IMG/VR virus record: IMGVR_UViG_3300020308_000002
Location: 1 to 64,000 of that record
DNA: 64,000 bases
Strand: one strand, 5' to 3'
DNA from: a virus
Taxonomy: Duplodnaviria; Caudoviricetes
Position numbers and translations under genes: made by a program. Below are positions 34,382 through 35,912 of this stretch, one piece after another; within the stretch, counting starts at the first letter, position 1; each line of letters starts with the position of its first letter. The notes under the pieces were generated by a model, which worked only from the letters and a program-made list of their open reading frames with translations, was not told the origin of the DNA and did no database searches.

Positions 34382-34756
34382 ATGTCTAAATTCGTCATGA
34401 TGAAAACACCCTCAAGAGAAGAATTCGATGACTTCATTAACCAGTCTCCTGTAGAAATTCTTACCAAAGAAGAAACAGAACAGGTGTATAACACTGGTGG
34501 AAAAATGTATGTCAAAGTTAATTATTCTTTCAAAGTTCCATTTTCTAAAATTCAATATGAAGAATACTGCTTTCAAAAATGCTTGATGGATCTATTGAGA
34601 AACTACTGCGAGAACCAAAGAATTCAATTTGGTGCAGTAGATGACATCCTTGCAAAGCCTCAAGACAACTTTGATCAAGAAAAAGTACTAACTGGCGCAC
34701 AGAAGTCAGTTCTATTAAATTACAGCAAGATCTGGGACAAGCTGCTTGACTCTTAA
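34382..34756 (+). CDS. Hypothetical protein
   Basis: Start moved to ATG 34382. Confidence 0.65.
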   Translation: MSKFVMMKTPSREEFDDFINQSPVEILTKEETEQVYNTGGKMYVKVNYSFKVPFSKIQYEEYCFQKCLMDLLRNYCENQRIQFGAVDDILAKPQDNFDQEKVLTGAQKSVLLNYSKIWDKLLDS

Positions 34757-35912
34757 AATACTCGATGCCTTCGCTGGTATAGGAGGATTCTCATACGCAG
34801 CCGAGAGGTTGGTCGGTGGCTTTGAAACTAAACAATTCATTGAAATCGACCCTTACTGTCAGTCAGTTTTAAAGAAGAATTTCCCCAACGTTCCTATACA
34901 CAATGACATTACCACATTCCAGTCATACCAAGGAGAGTACGACTTACTCACAGCCGGATTTCCTTGCCAAGATTTGTCCGTGGCTGGATCGCAGAAGGGT
35001 ATTGGAGAGGGAACTCGCAGCGGTCTTTTCTACGAAGTCATGCGAGTGGTTAGGATCGTTCGACCTCGATTCGTCTTACTTGAAAACGTTAGAAATCTTA
35101 TCTCGCACAAGCAAGGGGAAACCTTCCAAGAAATTCTCTTTCAAATTGCCCAAGCAGGGTACGATGCTGAATGGTCGATTGTTTCAGCTAGAGATTTGGG
35201 AGCCTGTCACAAGCGCGAGCGAATCTGGATCATTGCCTACCCCAAACACGATGGATTCCCTCCCTCTGAGGAGCAAAGAATCCATGATCAAGCAAGTGAC
35301 AGAGACAAGGCCAGGAAGGACGAAGCTATCCAATCTCAGGGAAGCAGTGAATCCAGAAGCGATTCAAATGTTCGAGGAACTTCGCAGTCCACTACTGCCA
35401 ACTCCGAGAGCACAGGAACCGGGGAACACCAACCACGGTTACGGAGACAACCTGAAGGAGGGAGTTTGCAAGGAGCTGGGGATACCAACCAAGAAGTATC
35501 CGACCCTACCAACTCCGACAGCACGAGACCACAAGGACTCGGGTCCGAATCTCAATTACGAGAAGGCTCACCAGAAAAGAAGGCTAGCTGGTTCGGCGGT
35601 CGTCTTGACGAACAACCTACCAACCCCATGTGCTCGGGATTGGAAGGGCAGATCAGGCCAAGGTTTCCAGGATCGATCAGGTGGCAGACCACGCCAACTT
35701 CCGGACGCCTTAACCCACGCTGGAGGGAGTACTTATCTCAACCCACACTTTGTAGAGGAGATGATGGGTTATCCAATAGGATATCTCGTCTAAAGGCACT
35801 CGGAAATACTATCGTTCCGGCTTGTGCTGCAGTTCCTCTACAAAGAATCAAACACTTATCCACTTACCCCCACTATGAAAGTGACAACTTCAAAAACAAA
35901 AACTCCTCTTGA
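34746..35912 (+). CDS. dcm: DNA (cytosine-5) methyltransferase, alpha-type chain (motifs I-VIII and X)
   Basis: DAFAGIGG (I), GFPCQ (IV), ENV (VI), RERIW (VIII), ALGNTIV (X); no motif IX in this frame. Confidence 0.9.
   Translation: MTLKILDAFAGIGGFSYAAERLVGGFETKQFIEIDPYCQSVLKKNFPNVPIHNDITTFQSYQGEYDLLTAGFPCQDLSVAGSQKGIGEGTRSGLFYEVMRVVRIVRPRFVLLENVRNLISHKQGETFQEILFQIAQAGYDAEWSIVSARDLGACHKRERIWIIAYPKHDGFPPSEEQRIHDQASDRDKARKDEAIQSQGSSESRSDSNVRGTSQSTTANSESTGTGEHQPRLRRQPEGGSLQGAGDTNQEVSDPTNSDSTRPQGLGSESQLREGSPEKKASWFGGRLDEQPTNPMCSGLEGQIRPRFPGSIRWQTTPTSGRLNPRWREYLSQPTLCRGDDGLSNRISRLKALGNTIVPACAAVPLQRIKHLSTYPHYESDNFKNKNSS
34903..35793 (+). CDS. Nested +1-frame gene, putative methyltransferase beta chain (TRD plus motif IX)
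   Basis: 296 codons wholly inside dcm; four LPTP repeats; C-terminal LNPHFVEEMMGYP motif IX-like segment. Confidence 0.75.
   Translation: MTLPHSSHTKESTTYSQPDFLAKICPWLDRRRVLERELAAVFSTKSCEWLGSFDLDSSYLKTLEILSRTSKGKPSKKFSFKLPKQGTMLNGRLFQLEIWEPVTSASESGSLPTPNTMDSLPLRSKESMIKQVTETRPGRTKLSNLREAVNPEAIQMFEELRSPLLPTPRAQEPGNTNHGYGDNLKEGVCKELGIPTKKYPTLPTPTARDHKDSGPNLNYEKAHQKRRLAGSAVVLTNNLPTPCARDWKGRSGQGFQDRSGGRPRQLPDALTHAGGSTYLNPHFVEEMMGYPIGYLV

What the first reader, a model, noticed from the sequence alone, without database searches (positions are those of the whole stretch)
34746..35912. C5 methyltransferase split over two reading frames of the same DNA
Seen: frame 0 has motifs I, IV, VI, VIII and X with a low-complexity middle and no motif IX. 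A 296-codon +1-frame ORF lies wholly inside it, with four LPTP repeats and the IX-like LNPHFVEEMMGYP. Known: M.EcoHK31I is a heterodimer whose beta chain, carrying motif IX, is encoded in an alternative frame within alpha. Inference: the same design here, with repeated LPTP units as possibly modular target-recognition segments.
Basis: partly seen in the sequence, partly recalled or inferred. Interest (0 to 1): 0.7.

Follow-up and report, generated by a model that had tools for sequence, protein, structure and literature searches.

The report
Two-frame phage cytosine methyltransferase gene
One 1.17-kb stretch of this cyanophage genome is read in two overlapping frames, which most likely give the catalytic half and the DNA-recognition half of a single DNA cytosine methyltransferase. 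One E. coli enzyme is known to be built this way, but here the layout is the normal form of a large, usually half-annotated phage and prophage family.

Summary
Frame 0 (34746-35912, 388 codons) carries C5-methyltransferase motifs I, IV, VI, VIII and X around a 165-residue low-complexity middle. A 296-codon +1 ORF (34903-35793) lies wholly inside it. It carries four LPTP modules and the motif-IX-like LNPHFVEEMMGYPIGY.

This is neither chance nor a broken gene:
- The same order (N-domain in frame f, LPTP/IX part in f+1, motif X in f) holds in every related viral locus that had all three parts.
- It also holds in 62 of 68 bacterial loci picked by a motif-IX DNA pattern alone.
- Against synonymous shuffles, frame-0 stops in the middle are 2 observed against 276 expected. 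+1 stops from alpha codon 55 on are 23 against 217. The third frame is not depleted.
- Purifying selection switches frame: 0, then +1, then 0.
- AlphaFold gives alpha as an M.HhaI-like large domain with a disordered tether.

The best reading (about 0.75) is an obligate two-chain enzyme of the M.EcoHK31I type. Alpha is the large domain and the nested beta is the small domain (TRD plus IX). It differs from the published M.EcoHK31I description in that the recognition modules sit in beta.

No expression or activity data exist. This scan has noted the same layout on other DNA many times.

The parts
34746..35912 (+). alpha ORF (frame 0), 388 aa, TTG start, TGA stop. Its start overlaps the end of the upstream ORF (34301-34756) by 11 nt.
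   Evidence: Pfam PF00145 E 6e-50. phrog_363 E 6e-69 over residues 1-373.
34746..35243 (+). alpha large-domain core: motifs I (34770-34787), IV (34956-34970), VI (35082-35090) and VIII (35208-35240).
   Evidence: AlphaFold pLDDT 88-98 for residues 1-170. Foldseek match to M.HhaI: E 1e-17, rmsd 1.9 A. phmmer match to M.HhaI residues 12-171: E 9e-28. Substitutions peak at frame-0 codon position 3.
35271..35762 (+). alpha tether (residues 176-339). It is low-complexity and predicted disordered. Its sequence is unconstrained but it is kept free of stops.
   Evidence: pLDDT below 50. Frame-0 amino-acid identity is 0.59 against 0.83 for the +1 frame, and substitutions peak at frame-0 position 1. Frame-0 stops: 2 observed against 276 expected in 58 loci.
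35766..35909 (+). alpha C-terminal part of the large domain, including motif X LGNTIVP (35799-35819).
   Evidence: pLDDT 77-97 for residues 341-375. G341, G353, N354 and P358 are invariant in 64 alpha sequences. The normal frame-0 substitution pattern returns after the beta stop.
34903..35793 (+). beta ORF (+1 frame), 296 aa. Its ATG is the first start codon of any kind after the +1 stop at 34870. Stop is TAA.
   Evidence: The region from residue 100 on matches phrog_1008 'DNA methyltransferase' at E 2e-13. 1633 representative clusters match it at E<=1e-3.
34903..35232 (+). beta N-terminal extension (residues 1-110), encoded by the same bases as alpha motifs IV-VIII. It is stop-free, but its conserved motifs are only frame shadows of alpha.
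   Evidence: +1 stops over alpha codons >=55: 23 observed against 217 expected. Upstream of codon 55: 156 against 125. Substitutions peak at +1 position 2, so there is no amino-acid constraint of its own. pLDDT is 40-59 for residues 1-80.
35233..35736 (+). beta variable region (TRD-like): four LPTP-headed modules at 35233, 35395, 35506 and 35617. The first overlaps the end of alpha's motif VIII strand.
   Evidence: Substitutions peak at +1 position 3, and amino-acid identity is 0.83. Whole modules are gained or lost in frame among relatives. Spacing is 111 nt. Module 1 has pLDDT 89-94. The junction overlap is conserved.
35737..35784 (+). beta motif IX-like LNPHFVEEMMGYPIGY. It overlaps alpha's conserved pre-X segment, so both frames are constrained here.
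   Evidence: M288 and G289 are invariant, and L279, P281, V284, E285 and P291 are at least 90% conserved, in 101 sequences. Same spacing as E. coli Dcm RLTPRECARLMGF. Substitution rates 0.008/0.034/0.165 by +1 codon position. pLDDT 80-87.

Best explanation
The locus encodes an orphan phage DNA cytosine-5 methyltransferase made of two polypeptides that are read from the same DNA in two frames.

Alpha (frame 0) is the complete large, catalytic and AdoMet-binding domain. It has motifs I-VIII, a roughly 165-residue disordered tether that only has to stay free of stops, and the helices around motif X.

Beta (+1 frame) starts at its own ATG at 34903, 157 nt into alpha. It supplies the small domain: four LPTP-headed recognition modules and motif IX.

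The two chains assemble into a normal two-domain enzyme, as in M.EcoHK31I.

What is shown here: both frames are held open, selection switches frame, the layout is conserved, and alpha folds as an M.HhaI-type large domain.

What is inferred: that beta is translated from 34903, that both chains are needed, that the LPTP modules read the target sequence, and that the enzyme protects phage DNA from host restriction.
For: 1. Layout.
- The alpha N-domain, the LPTP/IX part and motif X lie in frames f, f+1 and f in every viral locus that held all three parts. 66 of 67 of these have one uninterrupted alpha ORF.
- All relatives of the single-frame protein P0056 show the same +1 shift.
- 62 of 68 bacterial loci found by a motif-IX DNA pattern alone show it.

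2. Stop depletion is specific to frame and region (58 loci).
- Frame 0 in the middle: 2 stops observed against 276 expected.
- +1 frame from alpha codon 55 on: 23 against 217.
- +1 frame before codon 55: 156 against 125.
- Third frame: ratios of 0.95-1.18.

3. Codon-position substitution rates switch frame.
- N-domain: frame-0 position 3 is highest.
- Middle: +1 position 3 is highest (0.352). Amino-acid identity is 0.83 in +1 against 0.59 in frame 0.
- After the beta stop, frame 0 is again the constrained frame.

4. Natural control. In L085 and L119, motif X lies in the beta frame, and there the alpha frame stops right after motif VIII (176-177 aa).

5. The beta part is a true methyltransferase segment. 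In P0056/L084 the same modules and motif IX sit in frame between motifs VIII and X. The LxPxxxxx(L/M)MG(F/Y) spacing equals that of E. coli Dcm motif IX.

6. Independent initiation.
- The first +1 ATG falls at alpha codon 46-60 in 36 of 58 loci.
- 10 loci have beta's ATG at about alpha codon 4-7. Several read ATGAATG or GTGAATG, with the two starts 4 nt apart behind one ribosome-binding site.
- SD-like 5-mers precede the internal beta ATGs in 19% of loci against a 6% background.

7. Structure models. Alpha residues 1-170 and 341-375 are confident and match M.HhaI. Residues 176-339 are disordered.

8. Precedent. M.EcoHK31I needs both chains, and its beta is encoded in another frame inside alpha.
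Against: - There are no expression, proteomic or methylation data for this or any close relative.
- No Shine-Dalgarno-like sequence precedes the ATG at 34903. Marine cyanophages often lack one; this is my own knowledge.
- Beta alone folds poorly (mean pLDDT 62) and finds no structural or profile match in the PDB. Pfam does not detect motifs IX-X in relatives. The assignment of motif IX therefore rests on motif spacing and position.
- About 110 N-terminal residues of beta have no amino-acid constraint of their own, which is odd for a functional chain.
- The shuffle test and the substitution counts do not correct for relatedness among loci.
Confidence: 0.75

Rival explanations
1. One canonical polypeptide is made by two programmed ribosomal frameshifts: +1 after motif VIII and -1 after motif IX.
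For: The motif order across frames (I-VIII, TRD-IX, X) equals that of a canonical single-chain enzyme such as P0056.
Against: - Frameshifting would not need frame 0 open through the middle (2 stops against 276 expected). It would also not need the +1 frame open for ~110 codons upstream of the first LPTP (23 against 217).
- Alpha's motif VIII strand and beta's first LPTP share the same bases. This leaves no room for a shift that keeps both, and no conserved slippery run is seen across loci.
- Twin start codons in two frames in several loci point to separate initiation.
- Two efficient shifts in one gene have no precedent that I know of.
Confidence: 0.05
2. A two-chain enzyme, but beta starts closer to the recognition modules, for example at the conserved Met-87 (ATG at 35161). 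The upstream +1 openness then has another cause.
For: - The N-extension has no amino-acid constraint of its own and is mostly predicted disordered.
- A Met at the GTMLNG position is present in 20 of 21 aligned relatives.
- In M.EcoHK31I, internal Met codons of beta can serve as starts.
Against: - +1 stops are depleted about ninefold from alpha codon 55 on, but not before it.
- 34903 is the first start codon of any kind after the last +1 stop.
- Loci with twin starts keep the +1 frame open over the whole N-domain.
- The Met at GTMLNG is a by-product of alpha's conserved GYDAEW codons (sequence logic).
Confidence: 0.15
3. Only frame 0 is a functional gene. The +1 ORF is an untranslated relic or a frame shadow.
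For: - Public records annotate only frame 0 (S-H1, C75C1).
- Many motifs in beta's N-terminal part are indeed shadows of alpha motifs.
Against: - In the middle the substitution pattern is that of a +1-frame protein.
- The +1 product is homologous to the in-frame TRD and motif IX of single-frame and AquI-like relatives.
- Alpha alone would lack the small domain and motif IX altogether.
Confidence: 0.03
4. A pseudogene or an assembly artefact with two compensating indels.
For: A few relatives do show extra frame changes that look like indels (L113, L118, P0048, P0088).
Against: The identical frame order occurs in more than 150 independent loci, down to about 26% identity, with both frames open.
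Confidence: 0.01

Closest known systems
M.EcoHK31I (E. coli HK31, YGGCCR; Lee, Kam and Shaw 1995, as described in PMC2836561 and PMC3404938)
   Same: - A C5 methyltransferase of two chains.
- Alpha has motifs I-VIII and X.
- Beta has motif IX and is encoded wholly inside the alpha gene in another frame.
- Beta's N-terminal part is partly dispensable, and internal Met codons can serve as starts.
   Different: - The published description puts the TRD in alpha and only motif IX in beta. Here the conserved variable-region modules are in beta, and alpha's middle is an unconstrained, disordered tether.
- Beta here spans 76% of alpha, including the codons for motifs IV-VIII.
- Sequence homology to M.EcoHK31I could not be tested, because no sequence was available to the tools.
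M.AquI (Agmenellum quadruplicatum, CYCGRG; as described in PMC3404938)
   Same: A two-chain C5 methyltransferase split within the variable region. Relatives L085 and L119 of this family have that layout: alpha stops after motif VIII, and beta carries TRD, IX and X.
   Different: In the window, motif X stays in the alpha frame, so beta is nested in alpha and does not follow it.
Monomeric C5 methyltransferases M.HhaI, M.HaeIII and E. coli Dcm (Pfam PF00145)
   Same: Alpha matches the M.HhaI large domain in sequence and in the model. Motif IX of beta has the Dcm spacing. In these enzymes the large domain comprises I-VIII and X, and the small domain comprises the TRD and IX (PMC3404938).
   Different: They are one chain in one frame. 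Here the small domain is a separate chain encoded in the +1 frame.
Rz/Rz1 spanin genes of phages (a nested +1 ORF whose product works with the product of the enclosing gene; PMC4283147)
   Same: A same-strand +1 ORF embedded entirely in another phage gene, with both products acting together.
   Different: The proteins and function are unrelated and the overlap is much shorter. The spanin subunits are not two halves of one ancestral enzyme.

Membership tests
C5 cytosine DNA methyltransferase (Pfam PF00145) | Large-domain motifs I (FxGxGG), IV (PCQ), VI (ENV), VIII (QxRxR-type) and X (GNxV) | tested here: met
   All are present in frame 0. PF00145 E 6e-50 and TIGR00675 E 2e-45. The model matches M.HhaI at E 1e-17.
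C5 cytosine DNA methyltransferase (Pfam PF00145) | Small domain: a variable region (TRD) followed by motif IX, placed between motifs VIII and X | tested here: inconclusive
   Absent from frame 0 (Pfam stops at profile position 214). Present in the +1 frame by motif spacing (Dcm comparison) and by position in the single-frame relative P0056. However, no profile or fold match to solved small domains was found.
M.EcoHK31I-type nested alpha/beta methyltransferase | Beta ORF lies entirely within the alpha ORF, in another frame | tested here: met
   34903-35793 lies inside 34746-35912, in the +1 frame.
M.EcoHK31I-type nested alpha/beta methyltransferase | Alpha has motifs I-VIII and X; beta has motif IX | tested here: met
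M.EcoHK31I-type nested alpha/beta methyltransferase | TRD located in alpha (as published for M.EcoHK31I) | tested here: not met
   Alpha residues 176-339 are unconstrained in sequence and predicted disordered. The conserved modules are in the +1 frame.
M.EcoHK31I-type nested alpha/beta methyltransferase | Both polypeptides are made and both are required for methylation | not testable with these tools
   There is only indirect support: frame-specific stop depletion and selection.
M.EcoHK31I-type nested alpha/beta methyltransferase | Sequence homology to M.EcoHK31I alpha and beta | not tested
   No M.EcoHK31I sequence could be obtained. The 1995 paper (PMC306636) is not held.
M.AquI-type split methyltransferase | Alpha ends after motif VIII; beta carries IX and X | tested here: not met
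   Motif X is in the alpha frame in the window. The layout is met in relatives L085 and L119.

The most novel reading that the evidence does not exclude
The two-chain, two-frame form is the normal state of a large clade of phage and prophage C5 methyltransferases. Beta is translated from a start far upstream, or from a twin start 4 nt from alpha's, so that 100-230 codons encoding the catalytic motifs are also translated in the +1 frame as a stop-free but otherwise unconstrained leader. This would be one of the longest conserved same-strand overlaps known in prokaryotic viruses. Swappable 37-residue LPTP modules would then let target specificity change while both frames are preserved.
Probability: 0.5. 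Interest if true: 0.7.

Novelty: new variant of a known kind. Interest (0 to 1): 0.6.

Why it matters
- Annotation. Phage and prophage C5 methyltransferases of this family are annotated from frame 0 alone, as in S-H1 and C75C1. If the reading is right, those records describe only half an enzyme, and their low-complexity middle is a frame artefact kept as a tether. Specificity predictions, REBASE-type assignments and heterologous expression would fail unless the nested frame is included.
- Overlapping genes. It gives a clear natural case of long dual coding (891 nt), with separable signatures: openness only, shadow conservation, and true double constraint. Such a case is useful for methods that detect overlapping genes.
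- Protein engineering. The family offers natural split methyltransferases with modular recognition units. M.EcoHK31I has already been used for this kind of engineering (PMC2836561).

Tried and rejected
The DNA behind P0050, P0101 and P0108 was therefore not examined. P0056's locus was recovered through the search for related loci instead.
- A composite alignment, meant to fold the single-frame P0056 with N-domain, TRD and C-terminal fragments as separate rows, was misaligned by MAFFT and was dropped (A2).
- Beta alone gave no useful match. Foldseek against the PDB found nothing. The profile of 101 beta sequences found only a chance ferritin hit. Pfam does not see motifs IX-X in P0056, L085 beta or other relatives.
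It was replaced by a degenerate DNA pattern for WVEWLMG(F/Y)P.
- Literature searches found no paper that describes the family-wide nested frame. Two candidate papers were about other things. One search failed on a short term, and the 1995 M.EcoHK31I paper is not held.
- I first took the DSPAKTS, SWKT and GMMxNG motifs of +1 ORF proteins for a separate domain. They are frame shadows of GFPCQD, LENV and GYDxxW.
- Three 'single-frame' bacterial hits (L118, L136, L147) are not canonical. Their single ORF reads the middle in the shadow frame.

Full report
**What is there**

The window is part of a 74.6-kb IMG/VR virus record. The only isolate with a related gene is Synechococcus phage S-H1.

At 34746-35912 (+) lies a 388-codon ORF, here called alpha, with a TTG start. 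It carries C5-methyltransferase motifs I, IV, VI, VIII and X. Pfam PF00145 matches it only over profile positions 2-214 of 324. Residues 176-339 are rich in S, R, G, Q and E.

Inside it, in the +1 frame, lies a 296-codon ORF, here called beta (34903-35793). Its ATG is the first start codon of any kind after the +1 stop at 34870. It has four LPTP units and ends in LNPHFVEEMMGYPIGY followed by LV and the stop.

The neighbours are early or replication genes (an SSB and an exonuclease). No restriction enzyme was recognised, so this is an orphan phage methyltransferase.

**It is not chance, error or decay**

Three pieces were used as tblastn queries: alpha's N-domain, beta's LPTP/IX part and alpha's C-terminus.
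- In S-H1, in phage C75C1 and in 80 IMG/VR loci, every locus that held the pieces had them in frames f, f+1 and f.
- In 66 of 67 loci with all three pieces, alpha is one uninterrupted ORF, and the +1 frame is open for 180-460 codons.
- One representative protein, P0056, carries the same modules in a single frame. All 25 of its viral relatives again show the +1 shift.

An independent sample came from bacterial and MAG genomes. It was taken only by a degenerate DNA pattern for WVEWLMG(F/Y)P and spans Actinomycetota, Bacillota, Planctomycetota, Alphaproteobacteria, Bacteroidota, Spirochaetota and others. Of 68 loci with an upstream N-domain:
- 62 had the nested layout.
- 2 had alpha closed before motif IX. 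One of them (L119) is AquI-like, with alpha ending after motif VIII and motif X in the beta frame.
- 3 were apparent single-frame genes.
- 1 was odd.

**Both frames are held open by selection**

The coding frame was permuted synonymously in 58 non-redundant loci.

| Region and frame | Stops observed | Stops expected |
|---|---|---|
| Middle, frame 0 | 2 | 276 |
| Alpha N-domain from codon 55 on, +1 frame | 23 | 217 |
| Alpha N-domain before codon 55, +1 frame | 156 | 125 |

The third frame shows no depletion, with ratios of 0.95-1.18. For the window alone, 7.3 frame-0 stops are expected in the middle and none is seen.

A natural control agrees. In L085 and L119, motif X lies in the beta frame. 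There the alpha frame stops right after motif VIII, at 176-177 aa. Frame 0 is therefore kept open only where it has to carry motif X.

**Which frame is under protein-level selection**

Substitution rates were counted by codon position over 14 pairs of relatives.

| Region | Position 1 | Position 2 | Position 3 | Frame counted |
|---|---|---|---|---|
| Alpha codons 1-52 | 0.098 | 0.041 | 0.323 | frame 0 |
| Middle | 0.370 | 0.143 | 0.102 | frame 0 |
| Middle | 0.137 | 0.100 | 0.352 | +1 frame |
| After the beta stop | 0.196 | 0.093 | 0.384 | frame 0 |
| Motif IX stretch | 0.008 | 0.034 | 0.165 | +1 frame |

- In the middle, amino-acid identity is 0.83 in the +1 frame against 0.59 in frame 0.
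- The motif IX stretch is doubly constrained, because it overlaps alpha's conserved segment before motif X.
- Beta's first ~110 residues vary most at +1 position 2, so they have no amino-acid constraint of their own.
- The apparent motifs in that leader, seen also in many database proteins (DSPAKTS, SWKT, GMMxNG), are frame shadows of GFPCQD, LENV and GYDxxW.

**What the two products are**

AlphaFold with 64 alpha sequences gives pLDDT 88-98 for residues 1-170, below 50 for 176-339, and 77-97 for 341-375. The model matches M.HhaI at E 1e-17 and rmsd 1.9 A. By sequence, alpha residues 3-165 align to M.HhaI residues 12-171. Alpha is therefore a complete large domain with a disordered tether where the small domain would be.

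Beta's modules and its motif IX sit in frame between motifs VIII and X in P0056. They sit in one frame with motif X in L085 and L119. The LxPxxxxx(L/M)MG(F/Y) spacing equals E. coli Dcm's RLTPRECARLMGF. In 101 beta sequences M288 and G289 are invariant, and five further residues of the motif are at least 90% conserved.

According to PMC3404938, the small domain of C5 methyltransferases is the variable region plus motif IX, and it makes the base-specific contacts. Beta is therefore the small domain.

Beta alone folds with modest confidence. Mean pLDDT is 62. It is high only for module 1 (residues 111-160) and for the motif IX helix. The model has no PDB match. The TRD assignment thus rests on position and homology, not on fold.

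**Modularity**

The last three LPTP cores are 111 nt apart. Close relatives differ by clean in-frame loss or gain of whole modules, while the flanks stay 85-95% identical. That they read DNA is inferred.

**How beta is started**

- In 36 of 58 loci, the first +1 ATG lies at alpha codon 46-60. In the window it is at codon 53, made from the N-D codons of alpha's IHNDI.
- In 10 loci, beta's ATG lies at about alpha codon 4-7. Several read ATGAATG or GTGAATG, so the two starts are 4 nt apart behind one ribosome-binding site. The +1 frame is then open over nearly the whole gene.
- SD-like 5-mers precede the internal beta ATGs in 19% of loci, against a 6% background (P about 0.002, not corrected for relatedness). 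The window has none.

These features point to separate initiation, not frameshifting.

The junction points the same way. Alpha's ...RxRxW(I/L)(I/V)AYP and beta's ...ESG(S/L)LPTP share the same bases in nearly all loci. That leaves no room and no conserved slippery site for a shift that would keep both.

**Comparison with what is known**

M.EcoHK31I needs two chains, with beta encoded in another frame inside alpha. Alpha has motifs I-VIII, X and (as published) the TRD, and beta has motif IX. The window shares the design but not the TRD placement. Homology to M.EcoHK31I could not be tested.

M.AquI, with alpha carrying I-VIII and beta carrying IX-X, corresponds to the minority layout of L085 and L119.

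I found no paper that describes the nested frame as a family-wide feature. Public records annotate frame 0 only.

Earlier notes of this scan report the same layout on many other genomes. I treated them as leads and tested the points above myself.

**Verdict**

This is a real and strongly conserved dual-coding gene. It most likely encodes an obligate alpha/beta cytosine methyltransferase of the M.EcoHK31I type, with the recognition domain in the nested chain.

The limits are these:
- There are no expression or activity data.
- Beta's start site and the role of its shadow leader are unknown.
- The statistics are not corrected for phylogeny.

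Noticed in passing
L024, L038, L046, L060, L064, L068, L072 (positions): In a subgroup of relatives the beta ATG lies 4 nt after the alpha start. Several read ATGAATG or GTGAATG behind one Shine-Dalgarno-like site, so one ribosome-binding site would serve two frames and the +1 frame is open over almost the whole gene.
   Followed up: partly
L136 (Candidatus Megaera venefica) and L147 (Rickettsiaceae MAG), ORFs printed: A single ORF reads the N-domain, then the shadow-frame junk of the TRD (SDTDSTR, LADTNSAR, MADTNSAG), then motifs IX and X in the same frame. 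This is either a decayed gene or a third arrangement in Rickettsiales.
   Followed up: no
L126 (Dactylosporangium) and L175 (Actinosynnema): The beta frame stays open for about 1.3-1.9 kb beyond motif IX. This may be only the long open frames of high-GC DNA, or a fusion with a downstream gene.
   Followed up: no
window 35748-35759 and 35834-35845: A perfect 12-nt inverted repeat (CTTTGTAGAGGA / TCCTCTACAAAG) brackets the beta stop and alpha's motif X codons, with 74 nt between the arms. It may be chance.
   Followed up: no
window 34301-34756 and 35824-36447: The upstream ORF ends 11 nt inside alpha, whose start is TTG. The downstream ORF, if it starts at the listed GTG at 35824, overlaps alpha's last 89 nt. 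The genes are tightly packed and probably translationally coupled.
   Followed up: no
   Followed up: no
PDB 3g7u (prophage CP-933R) and 3lx6 (Shigella flexneri): Structural-genomics entries of prophage cytosine methylases appear among alpha's fold matches. If they belong to this family, they are alpha-only structures, and their genes may hide a nested beta.
   Followed up: no
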